Sequence record: OL956808.1
Reading direction: 5' to 3' (one strand)
Length of the DNA stretch: 64,000 nucleotides
Source: Escherichia phage vB_EcoM-S1P5QW
The translations under genes and the position numbers were made by a program. Below the pieces are notes generated by a model. It did not search any database. It was not told the origin of the DNA and saw only the letters and a program-made list of their open reading frames with translations. Below, piece by piece: positions 51,516 through 60,907 of the stretch (positions within the stretch are counted from its first letter, which is position 1; every line of letters starts with the position of its first letter).

Positions 51516-54212
51516 ATGAAAGAATTTTATATCTCTATCGAAACAGTCGGAAATAATATTGTTGAACGTTATATTGATGAAAACGGAAAGGAACGTACTC
51601 GTGAAGTAGAATATCTTCCGACTATGTTTAGGCATTGTAAGGAAGAGTCAAAATACAAAGACATCTATGGTAAAAACTGCGCTCCTCAAAAATTTCCATC
51701 AATGAAAGATGCTCGAGATTGGATGAAGCGAATGGAAGACATCGGTCTCGAAGCTCTCGGTATGAACGATTTTAAACTCGCTTATATCAGTGATACGTAT
51801 GGTTCAGAAATTGTTTATGACCGAAAATTTGTTCGTGTAGCTAACTGTGACATTGAGGTTACTGGTGATAAATTTCCTGACCCAATGAAAGCTGAATATG
51901 AAATTGATGCTATCACTCATTACGATTCAATTGATGATCGTTTTTATGTTTTCGACCTTTTGAATTCAATGTACGGTTCAGTATCAAAATGGGATGCAAA
52001 GTTAGCTGCTAAGCTTGACTGTGAAGGTGGTGATGAAGTTCCTCAAGAAATTCTTGACCGAGTAATTTATATGCCATTCGATAATGAGCGTGATATGCTC
52101 ATGGAATATATCAATCTCTGGGAACAGAAACGACCTGCTATTTTTACTGGTTGGAATATTGAGGGATTTGACGTTCCGTATATCATGAATCGCGTTAAAA
52201 TGGTTCTCGGTGAACGTAGTATGAAACGCTTCTCTCCAATCGGTCGAGTAAAATCTAAACTAATTCAAAATATGTACGGCAGCAAAGAAATTTATTCTAT
52301 TGATGGCGTATCTATTCTTGATTATTTAGATTTGTATAAGAAATTCGCATTTACTAATTTGCCGTCATTCTCTTTGGAATCAGTTGCTCAGCATGAAACC
52401 AAAAAGGGTAAATTACCATACGACGGTCCTATTAATAAACTTCGTGAGACTAATCATCAACGATACATTAGTTATAACATCATTGACGTAGAATCAGTTC
52501 AAGCAATTGATAAAATTCGCGGGTTTATCGATCTAGTTTTAAGTATGTCTTATTACGCTAAAATGCCTTTTTCCGGTGTAATGAGTCCTATTAAAACTTG
52601 GGATGCTATTATTTTTAACTCATTGAAAAGTGAACATAAGGTTATTCCTCAACAAGGTTCGCACGTTAAACAAAGTTTTCCGGGTGCATTTGTATTTGAA
52701 CCTAAACCGATTGCTCGTCGATACATTATGAGTTTTGACTTGACGTCTCTGTATCCTAGCATTATTCGTCAGGTTAACATTAGTCCTGAGACTATTCGTG
52801 GGCAGTTTAAAGTTCATCCAATTCATGAATATATCGCAGGAACAGCTCCTAAACCGAGTGATGAATATTCTTGTTCTCCGAATGGATGGATGTACGATAA
52901 GCATCAAGAAGGTATCATTCCAAAGGAAATCGCTAAAGTATTTTTCCAGCGTAAAGATTGGAAAAAGAAAATGTTCGCTGAAGAAATGAATGCCGAAGCT
53001 ATTAAAAAGATTATTATGAAAGGCGCAGGGTCTTGTTCAACTAAACCTGAAGTTGAACGATATGTTAAGTTCAGTGATGATTTCTTAAATGAACTATCGA
53101 ATTATACTGAATCTGTTCTCAATAGTTTGATTGAAGAATGTGAAAAAGCAGCTACACTTGCTAATACAAATCAGCTGAACCGTAAAATTCTTATTAACAG
53201 CCTTTACGGTGCTCTTGGTAATATTCATTTCCGTTACTATGATTTGCGAAATGCTACTGCTATCACAATTTTTGGTCAAGTTGGTATTCAGTGGATTGCT
53301 CGTAAAATTAATGAGTATCTGAATAAAGTATGTGGAACTAATGGCGAAGATTTCATCGCAGCAGGTGATACTGATTCGGTATATGTTTGTGTAGATAAAG
53401 TTATTGAAAAAGTAGGTCTTGACCGATTCAAAGAGCAGAACGATTTGGTTGAATTTATGAATCAGTTCGGTAAGAAAAAGATGGAACCTATGATTGATGT
53501 TGCATATCGTGAGTTATGTGATTATATGAATAACCGCGAGCATCTGATGCATATGGACCGTGAAGCTATTTCTTGCCCTCCGCTTGGTTCAAAGGGTGTT
53601 GGTGGATTTTGGAAAGCGAAAAAGCGTTATGCTCTGAACGTTTATGATATGGAAGATAAGCGTTTTGCTGAACCACATCTAAAAATCATGGGTATGGAAA
53701 CTCAGCAGAGTTCAACGCCTAAAGCGGTCCAAGAAGCTCTCGAAGAAAGTATTCGTCGTATTCTTCAGGAAGGTGAAGAGTCTGTCCAAGAATATTACAA
53801 GAACTTCGAGAAAGAATATCGTCAACTTGACTATAAAGTTATTGCTGAAGTAAAAACTGCGAACGATATAGCGAAATATGATGATAAAGGTTGGCCAGGA
53901 TTTAAATGCCCGTTCCATATTCGTGGGGTGCTAACTTATCGTCGAGCTGTTAATGGTCTGGGTGTAGCTCCAATTTTGGATGGAAATAAAGTAATGGTTC
54001 TTCCATTACGTGAAGGAAATCCATTTGGTGACAAGTGTATTGCTTGGCCGTCGGGCACAGAACTTCCAAAAGAAATTCGTTCTGACGTACTGTCTTGGAT
54101 TGACTACTCAACTTTGTTCCAAAAATCGTTTGTTAAACCGCTTGCAGGCATGTGTGAATCGGCTGGTATGGACTATGAAGAAAAAGCTTCGTTAGACTTC
54201 CTGTTTGGCTGA
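51516..54212 (+). CDS. 43: DNA polymerase gp43 (family B)
   Basis: 898 aa; exonuclease and polymerase motifs (YGDTDS, KILINSLYG), N-terminus as recalled for T4 gp43. Confidence 0.97.
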   Translation: MKEFYISIETVGNNIVERYIDENGKERTREVEYLPTMFRHCKEESKYKDIYGKNCAPQKFPSMKDARDWMKRMEDIGLEALGMNDFKLAYISDTYGSEIVYDRKFVRVANCDIEVTGDKFPDPMKAEYEIDAITHYDSIDDRFYVFDLLNSMYGSVSKWDAKLAAKLDCEGGDEVPQEILDRVIYMPFDNERDMLMEYINLWEQKRPAIFTGWNIEGFDVPYIMNRVKMVLGERSMKRFSPIGRVKSKLIQNMYGSKEIYSIDGVSILDYLDLYKKFAFTNLPSFSLESVAQHETKKGKLPYDGPINKLRETNHQRYISYNIIDVESVQAIDKIRGFIDLVLSMSYYAKMPFSGVMSPIKTWDAIIFNSLKSEHKVIPQQGSHVKQSFPGAFVFEPKPIARRYIMSFDLTSLYPSIIRQVNISPETIRGQFKVHPIHEYIAGTAPKPSDEYSCSPNGWMYDKHQEGIIPKEIAKVFFQRKDWKKKMFAEEMNAEAIKKIIMKGAGSCSTKPEVERYVKFSDDFLNELSNYTESVLNSLIEECEKAATLANTNQLNRKILINSLYGALGNIHFRYYDLRNATAITIFGQVGIQWIARKINEYLNKVCGTNGEDFIAAGDTDSVYVCVDKVIEKVGLDRFKEQNDLVEFMNQFGKKKMEPMIDVAYRELCDYMNNREHLMHMDREAISCPPLGSKGVGGFWKAKKRYALNVYDMEDKRFAEPHLKIMGMETQQSSTPKAVQEALEESIRRILQEGEESVQEYYKNFEKEYRQLDYKVIAEVKTANDIAKYDDKGWPGFKCPFHIRGVLTYRRAVNGLGVAPILDGNKVMVLPLREGNPFGDKCIAWPSGTELPKEIRSDVLSWIDYSTLFQKSFVKPLAGMCESAGMDYEEKASLDFLFG

Positions 54213-54224
54213 TAGAATAAATCT

Positions 54225-54247
54225 AGGGACCTCCGGGTCCCTTTTTC
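54225..54247 (+). terminator. intrinsic terminator hairpin plus T-run
   Basis: AGGGACCTCCGGGTCCCT followed by TTTTT. Confidence 0.7.
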
Positions 54248-54296: not shown

Positions 54297-54386
54297 TTTA
54301 GAATTCCCTAAAAAAATTTCACAAAACTGTTTACAAGACTGTTCTTCCATGGTACTATACAACTATCAACTACGGAGGAACACAAA
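54297..54386 (+). repeat. promoter/stem-loop cassette (PeSL-like) copy
   Basis: AGAATTCCCTAAAAAAATTTCACAAAACTGTTTACAAGACTGTTCTTCCATGGTACTATACAACTATCAACTACGGAGGAACAC; near-duplicate of 12500-12590 and 28920-28981. Confidence 0.65.
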
Positions 54387-54638
54387 ATGAAAAATATTCA
54401 AACTAATTTTATTCAAAATTTAAAAGTTGTTAACGCAGAAAAAGCTAATAAACTCTTTAAAGTTAAAGAATTTGAAAATGAAGGTAACACTTACGGTATT
54501 ATAGAACAAAATGGAATGGTTACTGGATTAGAAATTTATAATGGTAAAGGAAAATTTCAGTCACAGCCAATTTCTGTTATGGGTGTAAGAAAAGGAATTA
54601 AAACTGAAGATGCTTTAAAGTTATTTGTTAAGTTTTAA
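54387..54638 (+). CDS. hypothetical protein
   Basis: 83 aa downstream of promoter cassette. Confidence 0.55.
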   Translation: MKNIQTNFIQNLKVVNAEKANKLFKVKEFENEGNTYGIIEQNGMVTGLEIYNGKGKFQSQPISVMGVRKGIKTEDALKLFVKF

Positions 54639-54650
54639 GAGGAAATTATT

Positions 54651-55031
54651 ATGAAAATCGCTATTTTGGTTATTGCATTAGGTCTTACTGGTTGTGTGGC
54701 TCAAGGACCGGTAGTAAATCAGTCTGATGTAGGAAAAATTGTAAACTGTTCAAGCAAGTTTTATAATCCTAATGTCAAGTGTTATAAAGAAGCTCCAAAG
54801 CAAACAGTAGAACAAATGCAGGCGAATTTTGACGAAGCTATTCGTCCAGATGAATCTGCTCAAGCATATCGTAATTCGGATGTAATTACACGCGAAGAAA
54901 AAATTGAAAACTACTGCGCCGAGCTTTGGGCTAATTGGGCTAATAATTACCAATGGCGTACCGGTAAAAATGCTCCGATGGAGTATGTAGTGAATTCTTA
55001 TAATTCATGCGTAAAAAATTTGACTAAGTGA
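54651..55031 (+). CDS. predicted lipoprotein
   Basis: 126 aa; signal peptide with lipobox LTGC; RBS GAGGAAA. Confidence 0.6.
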   Translation: MKIAILVIALGLTGCVAQGPVVNQSDVGKIVNCSSKFYNPNVKCYKEAPKQTVEQMQANFDEAIRPDESAQAYRNSDVITREEKIENYCAELWANWANNYQWRTGKNAPMEYVVNSYNSCVKNLTK

Positions 55032-55038
55032 GGAAAAC

Positions 55039-55290
55039 ATGGAAACTTTAGTAGCAGGTTCAATTTTTATGGTTTTAGTTTCAGGCGTGTTGGCTATTAT
55101 TATATACATGCTTCCATGGTTTATCGCCTTGATGCGTGGGTCAAAATCGACAGTAGGAATCTTTTTCACGTCTTTACTGTTTAACTGGTCAATTATTGGT
55201 TGGTTTATTACATTTATTTGGTCAATTGCGGGTGAAACTAAAAAGTCTGCACAGCCAAATCAGGTAATTATCATCAGAGAGAAGGAATGA
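55039..55290 (+). CDS. imm: superinfection immunity membrane protein Imm
   Basis: 83 aa, two transmembrane segments, located between 43 and 42 as in T4. Confidence 0.8.
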   Translation: METLVAGSIFMVLVSGVLAIIIYMLPWFIALMRGSKSTVGIFFTSLLFNWSIIGWFITFIWSIAGETKKSAQPNQVIIIREKE

Positions 55291-55436
55291 AAAGCAAAAT
55301 TATAGCAGTGTTGCTTTTAATCTTGATGATTATAATAAGTATATACTATAGTGTAACGGTTCCTCTTATGATTCCAACTATTATTTTAGGTTGGAGCTTA
55401 TTACTGTTACAAGTTAAATATGAATGTATCAATTGA
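55287..55436 (+). CDS. small hydrophobic peptide
   Basis: 49-aa ORF below the cutoff, ATGA overlap with imm. Confidence 0.4.
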   Translation: MKSKIIAVLLLILMIIISIYYSVTVPLMIPTIILGWSLLLLQVKYECIN

Positions 55437-55443
55437 GGTTTAA

Positions 55444-56184
55444 ATGATTAGTGACTCTATGACAGTTGAAGAAATCCGTCTTCATTTGGGGCTTGCATTA
55501 AAGGAAAAAGATTTCGTAGTTGATAAAACTGGTGTTAAAACTGTTGAAATTATTGGCGCATCATTTGTAGCAGATGAACCCTTTATTTTTGGCGCTCTTA
55601 ATGATGAATACATTCAGCGTGAACTTGAATGGTACAAGTCTCAAAGTCTGTTTGTTAAAGATATTCCAGGTGAAACACCAAAGATTTGGCAGCAGGTAGC
55701 ATCTTCTAAAGGCGAAATTAACTCGAATTATGGTTGGGCTATTTGGTCAGAAGATAACTATGCCCAGTATGATATGTGTTTAGCTGAACTTGGTCAAAAT
55801 CCTGATTCTCGACGTGGTATCATGATTTATACTCGTCCATCTATGCAGTTTGACTATAATAAAGATGGTATGTCAGATTTCATGTGCACGAATACAGTAC
55901 AGTACCTGATTCGTGACAAGAAAGTCAATGCAGTAGTAAGCATGCGCTCAAATGACGTGGTCTTCGGATTCCGTAATGATTATGCATGGCAAAAATACGT
56001 ATTAGATAAATTAGTATCTGATTTGAATGCAGGCGATTCAACTCGTCAGTATAAAGCAGGTTCTATTATATGGAATGTTGGAAGTCTTCATGTATATTCT
56101 CGTCATTTTTACTTGGTTGATCATTGGTGGAATACTGGCGAAACTCATATTGTGAAAAAAGACTATAAAGGTGAGTGGAAATGA
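55444..56184 (+). CDS. 42: dCMP hydroxymethylase gp42
   Basis: 246 aa; thymidylate-synthase-like fold, matches recalled T4 gp42 closely. Confidence 0.92.
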   Translation: MISDSMTVEEIRLHLGLALKEKDFVVDKTGVKTVEIIGASFVADEPFIFGALNDEYIQRELEWYKSQSLFVKDIPGETPKIWQQVASSKGEINSNYGWAIWSEDNYAQYDMCLAELGQNPDSRRGIMIYTRPSMQFDYNKDGMSDFMCTNTVQYLIRDKKVNAVVSMRSNDVVFGFRNDYAWQKYVLDKLVSDLNAGDSTRQYKAGSIIWNVGSLHVYSRHFYLVDHWWNTGETHIVKKDYKGEWK

Positions 56185-57023
56185 TTCAATTCGTAATTCC
56201 AAGTTATCAACGTGTCGGGGCAGTTTCTGCCCTTGATATGTTTCCGACTGATTATGAACCGCATATTGTAGTGCGTGAACACGAAGAAAAAGCTTATTAT
56301 GATGCTTATGGGTCTAGAGCTAAAATTATAACTATTCCTGATGATGTAAACGGAATTGCCGGTACTCGTAAAGCAATTACTGATATGTATGCAGGTCAAC
56401 GAATTTGGATGATTGACGATGATACTACTATTCGTATGAGTTCAATGCGAAAAAGAGATGACCGTCGTTGTGTGGATAAAGTCAATCAATTGACTCATGA
56501 ACAGTTCTATGAATTGATTCAATATGTTGAGGATGCCATGGATTGTGGGTATTATCATGGCCATGCTCGTCTACCTATTTTTAAAATTACTTCATCTTGG
56601 GGCAATTATCGTGAAAATTCATATGGATTCACGAATACATGGTATGACCTCGGAAAACTTACTACAGAACAAATTGGGTATGGAAAAATTGATTTATGCG
56701 AAGATATGTATGCATTTCTCAATTTAATTAGTCAAGGTTATCCGCATTTGGCCTTGTTCAAATATCTGGTTGTATCTGGAAAAGCACAAGCTCCTGGCGG
56801 GTGTAGTTCAATTCGTAGTAATTCTAAACATAATAGAGCGCTTGAGCAAATCAATAGAGAGTTTCCAGAGCAAGCTCGTTGGAAAACTTCTAATATTGAA
56901 AAACGAAAATCGTTGGGTGAAGAAGACGAGCCATTAAAGGTTCTTCGCATGTGTGTTTCACGTAAAGAAAAATCAGAAGCATTTCATAAGTTTAATGCTA
57001 TTCATCCAATAGCAGTTGATTAA
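56175..57023 (+). CDS. DNA glycosyltransferase in the beta-gt locus (GT-A fold with DxD; likely T2/T6-type beta-glucosyl-HMC-alpha-glucosyltransferase)
   Basis: 282 aa with WMIDDDTT DxD motif; unlike the 351-aa T4 beta-gt but in the same position. Confidence 0.6.
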   Translation: MEMIQFVIPSYQRVGAVSALDMFPTDYEPHIVVREHEEKAYYDAYGSRAKIITIPDDVNGIAGTRKAITDMYAGQRIWMIDDDTTIRMSSMRKRDDRRCVDKVNQLTHEQFYELIQYVEDAMDCGYYHGHARLPIFKITSSWGNYRENSYGFTNTWYDLGKLTTEQIGYGKIDLCEDMYAFLNLISQGYPHLALFKYLVVSGKAQAPGGCSSIRSNSKHNRALEQINREFPEQARWKTSNIEKRKSLGEEDEPLKVLRMCVSRKEKSEAFHKFNAIHPIAVD

Positions 57024-57100: not shown

Positions 57101-58282
57101 ATGTCTATTGCAGATTTAAAATCCCGTTTGATTAAAGCTTCCACTTCTAAAATGACTGCTGAACTGACTACATCTAAATTCTTTAATGAAAAGGATGTAA
57201 TCCGTACAAAAATCCCAATGCTTAATATTGCTATTTCTGGTGCGATTGATGGCGGCATGCAGTCTGGTTTAACTATTTTCGCAGGGCCTTCTAAACACTT
57301 TAAATCAAATATGTCTTTGACTATGGTTGCGGCATATTTGAACAAATATCCTGACGCGGTTTGTCTATTCTATGATAGCGAATTTGGTATTACTCCAGCT
57401 TATTTACGATCCATGGGAGTTGACCCGGAACGAGTAATTCATACGCCAATTCAGTCAGTTGAACAGCTGAAAATTGATATGGTGAACCAGCTTGAAGCTA
57501 TTGAGCGTGGTGAAAAGGTTATTGTATTCATCGACTCAATCGGTAATATGGCTTCTAAGAAAGAAACGGAAGATGCCTTGAATGAAAAATCTGTGGCAGA
57601 TATGACTCGTGCTAAATCACTGAAGTCATTATTCCGTATTGTTACTCCTTATTTTAGCATTAAAAATATTCCATGTGTTGCGGTTAACCATACAATTGAA
57701 ACAATTGAAATGTTTAGTAAAACCGTGATGACAGGTGGTACAGGCGTAATGTATTCGGCTGATACTGTATTCATTATCGGTAAACGCCAGATTAAAGATG
57801 GTTCTGATCTTCAGGGGTATCAATTTGTTCTAAATGTAGAAAAATCTCGTACCGTTAAAGAAAAAAGTAAATTCTTTATTGATGTTAAATTTGACGGTGG
57901 TATCGATCCTTATTCTGGATTGTTAGATATGGCTCTAGAATTAGGATTTGTTGTAAAACCTAAGAATGGTTGGTATGCTCGTGAATTTCTTGACGAAGAA
58001 ACTGGCGAGATGATTCGCGAAGAAAAATCTTGGCGTGCAAAAGATACCAACTGCACTACATTCTGGGGTCCTTTATTTAAGCATCAACCATTCCGAGATG
58101 CTATTAAACGTGCTTATCAGTTAGGTGCTATTGATAGTAATGAAATTGTTGAAGCTGAAGTTGATGAATTGATTAACTCAAAGGTTGAAAAATTTAAATC
58201 TCCAGAAAGTAAAAGTAAATCAGCAGCTGATTTAGAAACTGACCTCGAGCAGTTAAGTGATATGGAAGAATTTAATGAATAA
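57101..58282 (+). CDS. uvsX: RecA-like recombinase UvsX
   Basis: 393 aa; Walker A GPSKHFKS and near-identity to recalled T4 UvsX over most of its length. Confidence 0.95.
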   Translation: MSIADLKSRLIKASTSKMTAELTTSKFFNEKDVIRTKIPMLNIAISGAIDGGMQSGLTIFAGPSKHFKSNMSLTMVAAYLNKYPDAVCLFYDSEFGITPAYLRSMGVDPERVIHTPIQSVEQLKIDMVNQLEAIERGEKVIVFIDSIGNMASKKETEDALNEKSVADMTRAKSLKSLFRIVTPYFSIKNIPCVAVNHTIETIEMFSKTVMTGGTGVMYSADTVFIIGKRQIKDGSDLQGYQFVLNVEKSRTVKEKSKFFIDVKFDGGIDPYSGLLDMALELGFVVKPKNGWYAREFLDEETGEMIREEKSWRAKDTNCTTFWGPLFKHQPFRDAIKRAYQLGAIDSNEIVEAEVDELINSKVEKFKSPESKSKSAADLETDLEQLSDMEEFNE

Positions 58283-60111: not shown

Positions 60112-60294
60112 ATGGAATTGGTAAAGGTAGTTTTTATGGGGTGGTTTAAGAATGAAAGCATGTTTACTAAAGAAACCACAATGATGAAAGATGACGTTCA
60201 ATGGGCTACTACTCAATATGCTGAAGTTAATAAAGCATTAGTTAAAGCTTTCATTGATGACAAGAAAGTATGTGAAGTAGATTGCCGAGGATAA
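60112..60294 (+). CDS. dmd: Dmd (discriminator of mRNA degradation; antitoxin of RnlA/LsoA)
   Basis: 60 aa; sequence recalled as T4 Dmd (gene 61.5); adjacent to gene 41; RBS GAGGAGA. Confidence 0.75.
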   Translation: MELVKVVFMGWFKNESMFTKETTMMKDDVQWATTQYAEVNKALVKAFIDDKKVCEVDCRG

Positions 60295-60613: not shown

Positions 60614-60907
60614 ATGAAAAAATTTATTTTTGCTACAATTTTTACTTTGGCTTCTTGTGCTGCTCAGCCTGCTATGGCAGGTTATGATAAAGATTTGTGT
60701 GAATGGTCTATGACTGCAGATCAGACTGAAGTTGAAACTCAAATTGAAGCGGATATTATGAATATCGTTGAGCGTGATCGTCCTGAAATGAAAGCTGAAG
60801 TACAAAAACAGCTTAAGTCTGGTGGTGTAATGCAGTATAATTATGTTCTGTATTGCGATAAAAACTTTAATAACAAAAATATCATCGCTGAAGTGGTAGG
60901 TGAATAA
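60614..60907 (+). CDS. sp: periplasmic protein Spackle (superinfection exclusion; lysozyme inhibitor)
   Basis: 97 aa with signal peptide MKKFIFATIFTLASCAAQPAMA; length and locus match T4 sp (61.3). Confidence 0.7.
   Translation: MKKFIFATIFTLASCAAQPAMAGYDKDLCEWSMTADQTEVETQIEADIMNIVERDRPEMKAEVQKQLKSGGVMQYNYVLYCDKNFNNKNIIAEVVGE

What the first reader, a model, noticed from the sequence alone, without database searches (positions are those of the whole stretch)
54651..55436. Lipoprotein, Imm and a small hydrophobic peptide form a compact envelope-directed cluster
Between polymerase gene 43 and gene 42 lie a predicted lipoprotein (lipobox LTGC), the two-TM Imm protein and an overlapping 49-aa hydrophobic ORF. 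All are translationally coupled, suggesting a co-expressed exclusion or envelope-modifying module larger than imm alone.
Basis: partly seen in the sequence, partly recalled or inferred. Interest (0 to 1): 0.4.

Follow-up and report, generated by a model that had tools for sequence, protein, structure and literature searches.

The report
T4-type imm.1, imm and 42.1 genes
This is the known imm.1–imm–42.1 stretch of a T2/T4-like phage: all three genes are real, but comparison with relatives shows that only the lipoprotein gene stays next to the superinfection-immunity gene, so they are not one obligate three-part module.

Summary
At 54651-55436 a Tequatrovirus window (99.3% identical to phage TadeuszReichstein) carries three genes.
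- imm.1 encodes a 126-aa lipoprotein (Pfam DUF5481, lipobox LTGC).
- imm encodes the 83-aa Imm protein (PF14373).
- A 49-aa hydrophobic ORF overlaps imm by ATGA; it is annotated "42.1" in RB14 and left unannotated in the T4 record examined.

All three are catalogued families under purifying selection (dN/dS 0.06, 0.04 and 0.25).

The three-gene module idea is only partly supported.
- The lipoprotein family lies within about 150 nt of imm, same strand, in all seven lineages sampled that carry imm. Gene order is permuted in Dhaka/Gaprivervirus. In Mosigvirus the pair moved to sit between dmd and spackle.
- 42.1 is separable. Mosig-, Winkler- and Kanagawavirus keep it next to arabinosylation-type genes with no imm beside it. 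Gelderland-, Jiaoda- and Muldoonvirus lack it at this locus.
- Kanagawavirus Q7622 has no imm anywhere, yet keeps both the lipoprotein and 42.1.
- Imm alone excludes T4 (2026 preprint).
- Tight spacing is the genome's norm (61% of junctions 15 nt or less), and the unit runs on into gene 42.

Best reading: three early envelope proteins. The lipoprotein is possibly an Imm-independent periplasmic guard. Its function is untested.

The parts
54225..54242 (+). Intrinsic terminator-like hairpin (AGGGACC-TCCG-GGTCCCT followed by TTTTT) just after the gene 43 stop. It marks the upstream boundary of the transcription unit.
   Evidence: The hairpin is conserved in T4 and RB14.
54330..54358 (+). Sigma-70-type, T4-early-like promoter candidate (TTTACA, 17 nt, TACTAT, with an extended TG). 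It is the likely start of the unit orf83-imm.1-imm-42.1-42-ba-gt.
   Evidence: The sequence is nearly invariant in the window, T4 and RB14. Function is inferred, not shown.
54387..54638 (+). orf83: a soluble 83-aa ORF of unknown function. It is a variable insert, absent from T4 and RB14.
   Evidence: phrog_18567, E 7e-52. Only about 31 of 517 matching records span it. Seen as an insertion in the alignment. GRAVY -0.39.
54651..55031 (+). imm.1: a 126-aa prolipoprotein. Residues 1-15 are the signal peptide and lipobox LTGC (54651-54695). Residue +2 is Val. The mature protein is 112 aa with four further Cys; the family-wide conserved pair is C89/C120.
   Evidence: Pfam DUF5481, E 5e-72. phrog_1754. 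PROSITE lipoprotein rule met. Family alignment. AF2 model: residues 1-47 disordered, three helices at 53-125. Detected as early RNA and early protein in T4 (PMC9697503 supplements).
55039..55290 (+). imm: the 83-aa superinfection immunity inner-membrane protein.
   Evidence: PF14373, E 8e-16, 58.2 bits against a cutoff of 27.9. 98.8-100% identical to T4 and T2 Imm. R33 and W50, shown to be functional in the 2026 preprint, are invariant in the alignment.
55287..55436 (+). 42.1: a 49-aa small membrane protein. It has two helices broken at an invariant P-x-M-I-P-T and a conserved C-terminal Q-x-K-Y-E-C-[FI]-N. Its ATG overlaps the imm stop codon (ATGA).
   Evidence: phrog_3610, E 1e-25. Annotated as 42.1 in RB14. 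762 phage records match by tblastn. 32 intact orthologues. dN/dS 0.25-0.36. AF2 pLDDT 86.
55444..56184 (+). Gene 42, dCMP hydroxymethylase. Included as context: the same unit continues here with no terminator in between.
56181..57023 (+). T2/T6-type beta-alpha-glucosyltransferase gene. Included as context: it overlaps gene 42 by ATGA.
   Evidence: phrog_842, E 4e-89. Sequence.

Best explanation
Shown:
- This is the front of an early transcription unit of a T2/T4-like phage (Tequatrovirus).
- It encodes three separate, already catalogued envelope proteins: the imm.1 lipoprotein, Imm, and the small membrane protein 42.1. A variable 83-aa ORF precedes them.
- The unit continues without a break into gene 42 and the hmC glucosyltransferase gene.

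Inferred mechanism, imm.1:
- The protein is exported, lipid-modified at Cys15 and, having no Asp at +2, sorted by Lol to the inner leaflet of the outer membrane.
- From there a flexible tether of about 30 residues presents a small three-helix bundle to the periplasm. The bundle is probably disulfide-braced.
- It is made in the first minutes of infection, like Imm and Spackle.
- It has stayed next to imm in every imm-bearing lineage sampled, and in Mosigvirus it sits between dmd and imm-spackle.
- I therefore think it most likely guards the infected cell's envelope against further phage attack, in parallel with Imm and Spackle. Imm sits in the inner membrane and binds the tape-measure protein gp29. 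Spackle is periplasmic and inhibits the gp5 lysozyme.
- Its target is probably conserved rather than a particular receptor. It does not need Imm to act.

Inferred mechanism, 42.1:
- It is a two-helix inner-membrane hairpin.
- It is translated by reinitiation from whichever gene precedes it (imm here).
- Its role is independent of Imm and is not yet identifiable.
For: Identity and annotation:
- 99.3% DNA identity to phage TadeuszReichstein.
- RB14 annotates imm.1, imm and 42.1.
- Family matches to DUF5481, PF14373, phrog_1754, phrog_1039 and phrog_3610.

Lipoprotein:
- The PROSITE rule is met. The lipobox and the C89/C120 cysteine pair are conserved in 10 lineages at 19-35% identity. None has Asp at +2.
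- The AF2 model shows a disordered tether plus a three-helix bundle with pLDDT 71-92.

Expression:
- T4 imm.1 is classed as early RNA and early protein, in the same class as sp (PMC9697503 supplements).

Linkage of the lipoprotein gene to imm:
- Adjacent in Tequatro-, Mosig-, Gelderland-, Jiaoda-, Gapriver-, Dhaka- and Muldoonvirus.
- All 23 T4-like imm loci in IMG/VR have the lipoprotein gene within 150 nt on the same strand.
- In Mosigvirus the pair lies between dmd and spackle, about 10 kb from 42.1.

Independence from Imm:
- The complete Kanagawavirus Q7622 genome has no Imm homologue (best E 0.21 and 0.16). It keeps the lipoprotein (7.5e-55) and 42.1 (8.8e-29).
- Imm alone excludes T4 and binds gp29.

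A conserved target rather than a receptor:
- imm.1 is at least 95% identical in about 500 Tequatrovirus records.

42.1 is a real gene:
- 32 intact orthologues, invariant motifs, dN/dS 0.25.
- An ATGA overlap with the upstream gene in every architecture.

One long transcription unit:
- A terminator and promoter candidate lie upstream only, with no terminator before gene 42.
Against: - No experiment links imm.1 or 42.1 to exclusion. I found no paper on their function.
- From memory, not checked here: classical genetics attributes T4 self-exclusion to imm plus sp. That leaves little residual activity for a third factor, at least against T4 itself.
- The imm.1-imm adjacency could be inherited synteny in a region just downstream of gene 43. 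The lipoprotein also stays there in lineages without imm.
- The fold gave no functional analogue (PDB and BFVD).
- Outer-membrane sorting rests on the E. coli +2 rule alone.
- SignalP and LipoP were not available.
Confidence: 0.45

Rival explanations
1. imm.1, imm and 42.1 form one co-expressed, co-functional exclusion or envelope-modifying module. The lipoprotein and the small peptide act as partners that Imm needs, or that strongly enhance it.
For: - The three genes are contiguous and tightly spaced here.
- They stay contiguous, in permuted order, in Dhaka- and Gaprivervirus.
- imm and 42.1 overlap by ATGA wherever both are at the locus.
- The lipoprotein gene is adjacent to imm in all imm-bearing T4-like loci sampled.
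Against: - Imm alone from a plasmid excludes T4 and binds gp29 directly.
- 42.1 is absent next to imm in Gelderland-, Jiaoda- and Muldoonvirus and in IME08. It lies 10 kb from imm in Mosigvirus.
- Kanagawavirus keeps the lipoprotein and 42.1 with no imm in the genome.
- Coupling is generic and extends to gene 42.
Confidence: 0.12
2. The synteny is only historical. imm.1 and 42.1 have envelope functions unrelated to superinfection exclusion. Possibilities include altering host lipoprotein or outer-membrane homeostasis, lysis timing or lysis inhibition, masking of cell debris against progeny adsorption or, for 42.1, a membrane role tied to the neighbouring DNA-modification genes.
For: - The lipoprotein sits immediately downstream of gene 43 in lineages with and without imm. 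This fits inheritance of an ancestral order.
- 42.1 always sits upstream of hmC-modification or sugar-nucleotide genes.
- Outside the T4-like phages, Imm_superinfect proteins have no lipoprotein neighbour in about 54 of 57 loci.
- There is no fold or sequence similarity to any known exclusion lipoprotein.
Against: - In Mosigvirus the lipoprotein left the gene 43 neighbourhood together with imm and landed beside spackle. This is hard to explain without some linkage.
- In Dhaka- and Gaprivervirus the order changed but adjacency was kept.
- imm.1 is in the same early expression class as sp.
Confidence: 0.35
3. The 49-aa ORF is a chance open frame in the imm-42 intercistronic spacer, not a gene. 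This is how the T4 and early RB69 annotations treated it.
For: - It is not annotated in the T4 record MZ375356.
- The RB69 note calls the region the 'T4 42-imm intercistronic region'.
- I found no proteomic or ribosome-profiling evidence.
Against: - The ORF is intact, with an ATG start and the same C-terminus, in all 32 loci spanning 41-100% identity.
- Ten columns are invariant.
- dN/dS is 0.25-0.36, with synonymous sites saturated between genera.
- It has its own PHROG family and a precomputed Pfam family, PF26865.
- The AF2 model is confident.
Confidence: 0.03

Closest known systems
T4 imm.1 / imm / (42.1) locus, as annotated in T4, RB14, RB32 and the BASEL phage TadeuszReichstein
   Same: Same genes in the same order. 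Protein identity is 97-100%. imm is the characterised Imm protein, which binds the tape-measure protein and blocks genome entry.
   Different: This window carries an extra 83-aa ORF upstream of imm.1 that T4 and RB14 lack. Its lipobox is LTGC, where T4 has LAGC. It has a T2/T6-type beta-alpha-glucosyltransferase downstream instead of T4 beta-gt.
T4 Spackle (sp), the periplasmic superinfection-exclusion protein that inhibits the gp5 lysozyme
   Same: Both are early, exported, small periplasm-facing proteins of T-even phages. In Mosigvirus, sp is the immediate neighbour of imm, with the imm.1 homologue on imm's other side. Both are in the same early RNA/early protein class in T4.
   Different: There is no sequence similarity; the lipoprotein HMM scores sp at E 0.02. 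Imm.1 is lipid-anchored and helical. No target for it is known.
Receptor-blocking exclusion lipoproteins: T5 Llp, and Cor of phi80/N15
   Same: Small phage-encoded lipoproteins of Gram-negative hosts that are made early and act on the envelope (from my own knowledge, and PMC9586334 listed).
   Different: There is no sequence or fold match. Imm.1 is at least 95% identical across Tequatroviruses, which from memory use different receptors. A receptor-specific blocker should co-vary with receptor choice.
Ltp of Streptococcus phage TP-J34, a lipoprotein that blocks DNA injection through the tape-measure protein
   Same: A surface-anchored lipoprotein involved in exclusion at the genome-entry step, which is also the step Imm acts on (PMC3952083 abstract; the tape-measure target is from my own knowledge).
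   Different: It belongs to a Gram-positive prophage. There is no detectable homology. The functional parallel is a hypothesis only.

Membership tests
Bacterial lipoprotein (PROSITE PS51257 rule; Lgt/LspA substrates) | Lys or Arg within the first 7 residues, followed by an uncharged h-region | tested here: met
   K2, followed by IAILVIALG with no D, E, R or K.
Bacterial lipoprotein (PROSITE PS51257 rule; Lgt/LspA substrates) | Lipobox [LIVMFWSTAG](2)-[LIVMFYSTAGCQ]-[AGS]-C, with the Cys at position 15-35 | tested here: met
   G-L-T-G-C with Cys15. L-x-G-C is invariant in 10 homologues of 19-35% identity.
Bacterial lipoprotein (PROSITE PS51257 rule; Lgt/LspA substrates) | Actual lipid modification and signal peptidase II cleavage | not testable with these tools
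   This needs globomycin or palmitate labelling. SignalP and LipoP were not available. Proteomics shows only that the protein is made.
Pfam DUF5481 (PF17578), the T4 Imm.1 family | Score above the Pfam gathering threshold over the full model | tested here: met
   239.2 bits against a cutoff of 27, E 5.4e-72, model positions 1-103 of 103.
Imm_superinfect (PF14373), T4 Imm | Score above the gathering threshold, and near-identity to characterised T4 Imm | tested here: met
   58.2 bits against a cutoff of 27.9. 98.8% identical to T4 Imm and 100% to T2 Imm.
Imm_superinfect (PF14373), T4 Imm | Residues shown to matter for exclusion (R33, W50) | tested here: met
   Both are present, and both are invariant in seven Imm proteins from seven lineages. 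Their functional role comes from the preprint.
gp42.1 small membrane protein family (phrog_3610; PF26865 in the collection's precomputed table) | Full-length match to the family profile | tested here: met
   phrog_3610, E 9.5e-26, profile positions 1-47 of 47. My own HMM gives 2e-26.
gp42.1 small membrane protein family (phrog_3610; PF26865 in the collection's precomputed table) | Match to the Pfam model PF26865 | tested here: inconclusive
   All 22 homologues carry PF26865.1 in the precomputed table. The local Pfam copy does not return that model, so I cannot give its name or a score.
Receptor-blocking exclusion lipoproteins (Llp, Cor) | Sequence or structural similarity to Llp or Cor | tested here: not met
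   No Pfam, PADLOC, PDB or BFVD match other than to its own family.
Receptor-blocking exclusion lipoproteins (Llp, Cor) | Co-variation with the phage's receptor specificity | tested here: not met
   All roughly 500 Tequatrovirus copies are at least 95% identical. That these phages use several different receptors is my own knowledge, not tested here.
o-spanin (Rz1-like outer-membrane lipoprotein of the lysis cassette) | Late expression, and a gene embedded in or adjacent to an i-spanin gene | tested here: not met
   imm.1 is early at both RNA and protein level. Its neighbours are orf83 and imm. In the related genome Q7622 the spanin pair is annotated elsewhere, at 141182-141825.

The most novel reading that the evidence does not exclude
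The Imm.1-family lipoprotein is an unrecognised third envelope-defence factor of T-even-type phages. Anchored in the outer membrane, it would intercept a conserved part of an incoming tail tip (gp5, gp27, gp5.4 or the tape-measure protein) or protect a conserved host envelope structure. Imm.1, Spackle and Imm would then form an outer-membrane, periplasm and inner-membrane barrier. The conserved imm.1-imm(-sp) linkage would reflect that shared task. The small 42.1 hairpin could be a further inner-membrane modulator.
Probability: 0.3. Interest if true: 0.6.

Novelty: already known. Interest (0 to 1): 0.3.

Why it matters
T4 superinfection exclusion is a textbook system explained by two proteins, Imm and Spackle. 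How Imm works is only now being resolved (2026 preprint). A lipoprotein that has stayed next to imm across seven T4-like lineages, is made in the first minutes of infection and has never been studied is a cheap, direct candidate for a missing component, or for another early envelope function. The comparison also tidies annotation. The 49-aa 42.1 ORF is a real conserved gene, yet it is missing from the T4 record examined here and from at least one Dhakavirus record, and it is truncated in the RB69 annotation. As a finding in this window, however, it is a re-observation of known, annotated genes. The proposed three-gene module does not hold as stated.

Tried and rejected
- **Fold searches of the Imm.1 model.** PDB by Foldseek gave nothing better than E 3.7. 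BFVD returned only its own family. A profile search against PDB sequences gave only weak matches through lipoprotein signal peptides (NDM-1, FlgH, BamE; E at least 0.3). No functional analogue came out of these.
- **PADLOC and NCBIfam scans** found nothing meaningful.
- **Word-indexed protein search with Imm.1 alone** found only near-identical proteins. Divergent homologues had to be found by reading neighbouring ORFs in other genera.
- **The exhaustive profile search** showed the lipoprotein family is small, with 24 representatives. No bacterial relatives are available to borrow a function from.
- **A general Imm-lipoprotein association outside T4-like phages** was tested and rejected. Only about 3 of 57 loci show it.
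- **The o-spanin and receptor-blocker (Llp/Cor) readings** were considered and rejected (see membership tests).
- **Literature.** Searches for imm.1, DUF5481 and ribosome profiling of T4 small ORFs found no functional work. The 1989 Lu and Henning paper could not be retrieved.
- **A 94-residue Imm start**, as used in the preprint, does not exist in this window. No in-frame start codon lies upstream of 55039 after the previous stop.

Full report
**What is there**

The window is a Tequatrovirus, a T2/T4/T6-like phage. The 1.3 kb around the finding is 99.3% identical to Escherichia phage TadeuszReichstein and 93-99% identical to about 500 other T4-like records. All genes below are on the + strand.

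| Coordinates | Feature |
|---|---|
| 51516-54212 | gene 43, DNA polymerase |
| 54225-54242 | terminator-like hairpin |
| 54330-54358 | early-type promoter candidate |
| 54387-54638 | 83-aa ORF |
| 54651-55031 | imm.1, 126 aa |
| 55039-55290 | imm, 83 aa |
| 55287-55436 | 49-aa ORF |
| 55444-56184 | gene 42 |
| 56181-57023 | T2/T6-type beta-alpha-glucosyltransferase |
| 57101-58282 | uvsX |

The hairpin and promoter candidate come, and both are conserved in T4 and RB14.

**Family assignments**

- The 126-aa protein matches Pfam DUF5481 at E 5e-72 and phrog_1754. It is the gene annotated imm.1 in T4 and RB14.
- The 83-aa protein matches PF14373 (Imm_superinfect) above threshold. It is 98.8-100% identical to T4 and T2 Imm.
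- The 49-aa ORF matches phrog_3610 at E 1e-25. RB14 annotates it as "42.1" and TadeuszReichstein as a hypothetical protein.
- The T4 record MZ375356 does not annotate this ORF, although it is intact there. The RB69 annotation calls the matching region the "T4 42-imm intercistronic region".
- The protein collection's precomputed table assigns Pfam PF26865 to all 22 homologues found. My local Pfam copy lacks that model, so I cannot give its name.

**Is the lipoprotein call sound?**

- MKIAILVIALGLTGC meets the PROSITE PS51257 rule: K2, an uncharged h-region, and the lipobox with Cys15.
- I found homologues by reading ORFs next to gene 43 or imm in other genera. They come from Mosig-, Gelderland-, Jiaoda-, Gapriver-, Dhaka-, Muldoon-, Winkler- and Kanagawavirus.
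- These homologues are only 19-35% identical, yet all keep L-x-G-C and a Cys pair aligned with C89 and C120.
- None has Asp at +2. By the E. coli Lol rule (established knowledge, not tested here) this predicts outer-membrane sorting.
- The lipobox pattern is rare by chance. In 80 loci, 44 of 2578 ORFs of 50 aa or more match it, and 27 of those belong to this family.
- AF2 predicts a disordered N-terminal 47 residues and a three-helix bundle at 53-125 with pLDDT 71-92.
- T4 Imm.1 is detected as early RNA and early protein, the same class as spackle (supplements of PMC9697503).
- SignalP and LipoP were not available.

**Is the 49-aa ORF a gene?**

Yes, as far as sequence can show.

- tblastn finds it in 762 phage records.
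- In 32 loci from six or more genera it is always intact, 45-49 aa long (48 in L032, which has one extra C-terminal Cys) and ATG-initiated.
- In the genus-level alignments Y20, P26, M28, P30, W36, Q42, C47 and N49 are invariant, and I29 and T31 are invariant or nearly so. Among the 32 loci, one copy (L036) has Tyr in place of C47.
- Nei-Gojobori dN/dS is 0.25-0.36, compared with 0.06 for imm.1 and 0.04 for imm in close pairs.
- AF2 gives two helices, 2-24 and 26-44, at pLDDT 86. GRAVY is 1.61.

**Are the three a module?**

I annotated 36 loci with HMMs and found six architectures.

| Class | Lineage | Gene order |
|---|---|---|
| A | Tequatrovirus | 43 \| (orf83) \| lipoprotein \| imm \| 42.1 \| 42 |
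| B | Dhaka- and Gaprivervirus | 43 \| imm \| 42.1 \| lipoprotein |
| C | Gelderland- and Jiaodavirus | 43 \| lipoprotein \| imm \| 42 (no 42.1) |
| D | Muldoonvirus | lipoprotein \| imm, overlapping (no 42.1) |
| E | Winkler- and Kanagawavirus and relatives | 43 \| lipoprotein \| arabinose-5-P isomerase \| 42.1 \| nucleotidyltransferase (no imm) |
| F | Mosigvirus | 43 \| isomerase \| 42.1, and about 10 kb away dmd \| lipoprotein \| imm \| spackle |

- In class B, phage IME08 lacks 42.1.
- The lipoprotein gene is next to imm in every imm-bearing T4-like lineage sampled. This holds through a change of order (B) and a joint relocation to the spackle neighbourhood (F).
- In IMG/VR, all 23 T4-like imm loci have the lipoprotein gene within 150 nt on the same strand.
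- The association does not extend beyond T4-like phages. About 3 of 57 other Imm_superinfect loci have a lipobox ORF nearby.
- 42.1 is separable from imm in classes C, D, E and F.
- 42.1 always begins with an ATGA overlap on whichever gene precedes it.
- The complete genome of Kanagawavirus Q7622 has no Imm homologue (hmmsearch --max best E 0.21; tblastn best 0.16). It keeps the lipoprotein (7.5e-55) and 42.1 (8.8e-29). Neither protein therefore depends on Imm.

**Other evidence bearing on the module idea**

- A 2026 preprint shows that Imm expressed alone excludes T4 and binds the tape-measure protein gp29. R33 and W50 matter for this, and both are conserved here. The preprint does not mention Imm.1.
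- Translational coupling is not distinctive. In a crude gene call, 69 of 113 same-strand junctions in the window overlap or are 15 nt or less apart, and 15 are ATGA-type.
- Gene 42 overlaps the glucosyltransferase gene in the same way.
- No terminator separates 42.1 from gene 42.

**Mechanism**

*Shown:* three conserved genes, two of them for membrane proteins and one for a lipobox-bearing secreted protein, all under purifying selection. For imm.1, early expression is also shown.

*Inferred:*
- Imm.1 is an outer-membrane-anchored periplasmic protein with a flexible tether and a helical head.
- Because it has stayed with imm, and in Mosigvirus also sits near sp, I think its most likely role is envelope protection against secondary attack, acting in parallel with Imm and Spackle.
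- Because it is at least 95% identical across about 500 Tequatroviruses, its target should be conserved rather than a specific receptor. That these phages use different receptors is my own knowledge.
- Because it persists without imm, it must work independently of Imm.
- 42.1 is a two-helix inner-membrane hairpin of unknown role.

*Weaknesses:*
- No experiment addresses either protein.
- No fold analogue was found.
- From memory, imm plus sp account for T4 self-exclusion.
- Inherited synteny downstream of gene 43 is a real alternative.

I put 0.45 on the overall best explanation and about 0.3 on the specific third-exclusion-factor reading.

**Comparison with what is known, and novelty**

The locus is the known T4-type imm.1/imm/42.1 region. 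Every ORF belongs to an existing Pfam or PHROG family and is annotated in close relatives.

It is not:
- an Llp/Cor-type receptor blocker, since there is no similarity and no co-variation with receptor choice;
- an o-spanin, since it is expressed early, sits in the wrong context, and the spanins lie elsewhere;
- demonstrably Ltp-like.

The finding is therefore already known as sequence. The useful additions are three: the cross-genus lipoprotein-imm(-sp) linkage, the separability of 42.1, and some annotation gaps. I score interest at 0.3.

Noticed in passing
window 54387-54638 (+): An 83-aa soluble ORF (phrog_18567, E 7e-52) sits between the early promoter candidate and imm.1. T4 and RB14 lack it, and only about 31 of 517 matching records carry it. 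It is a small mobile or variable insert of unknown function.
   Followed up: partly
L001 2334-2483 (T4 MZ375356); L014 2692-2829 (Dhakavirus UGJNEcP4); L004 2450-2593 (RB69): The conserved 42.1 ORF is unannotated in this T4 record and in UGJNEcP4. RB69ORF054c is annotated as 36 aa, but the conserved ORF is 47 aa, starting at an upstream ATG that overlaps the preceding gene by ATGA.
   Followed up: yes
L117-L120 (Enterobacter phage vB_EclM_Q7622, NC_070778.1, whole genome): This Kanagawavirus has no detectable imm homologue anywhere in its genome. It does carry spackle, the Imm.1-family lipoprotein and 42.1.
   Followed up: yes
L008 2813-3106 and L042 3313-3606 (Mosigvirus spackle): The spackle N-terminus MKKLSLAAILLAVSC matches the PROSITE lipobox pattern. 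This raises the question of whether some spackle proteins are lipid-anchored rather than soluble in the periplasm.
   Followed up: no
L097 2926-3444; L081 3299-3724; L107 3024-3380 (IMG/VR contigs that are not T4-like): A few unrelated Imm_superinfect-domain proteins either carry a lipoprotein signal themselves (L097) or have a lipobox ORF directly beside them (L081, L107). Most of the other 54 loci have neither.
   Followed up: no
window 56181-57023 (+): The gene after gene 42 is a T2/T6-type beta-glucosyl-HMC-alpha-glucosyltransferase (phrog_842, E 4e-89; Pfam TAGT, E 8e-10), not T4 beta-gt. It overlaps gene 42 by ATGA. A terminator-like hairpin lies inside its 5' end at 56217-56233.
   Followed up: partly
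L004, L005, L006, L007 (RB69, Winkler- and Kanagawavirus loci): In these genera, 42.1 sits between an arabinose-5-phosphate isomerase gene and a nucleotidyltransferase or phosphoheptose isomerase cluster. These are presumably genes for sugar modification of hmC. 42.1 always overlaps the isomerase gene's stop codon.
   Followed up: partly
window ~60118-60288 and ~60614-60904 (+): dmd and spackle homologues lie about 5 kb downstream of imm in this window. In Mosigvirus the lipoprotein-imm pair is inserted exactly between these two genes.
   Followed up: partly
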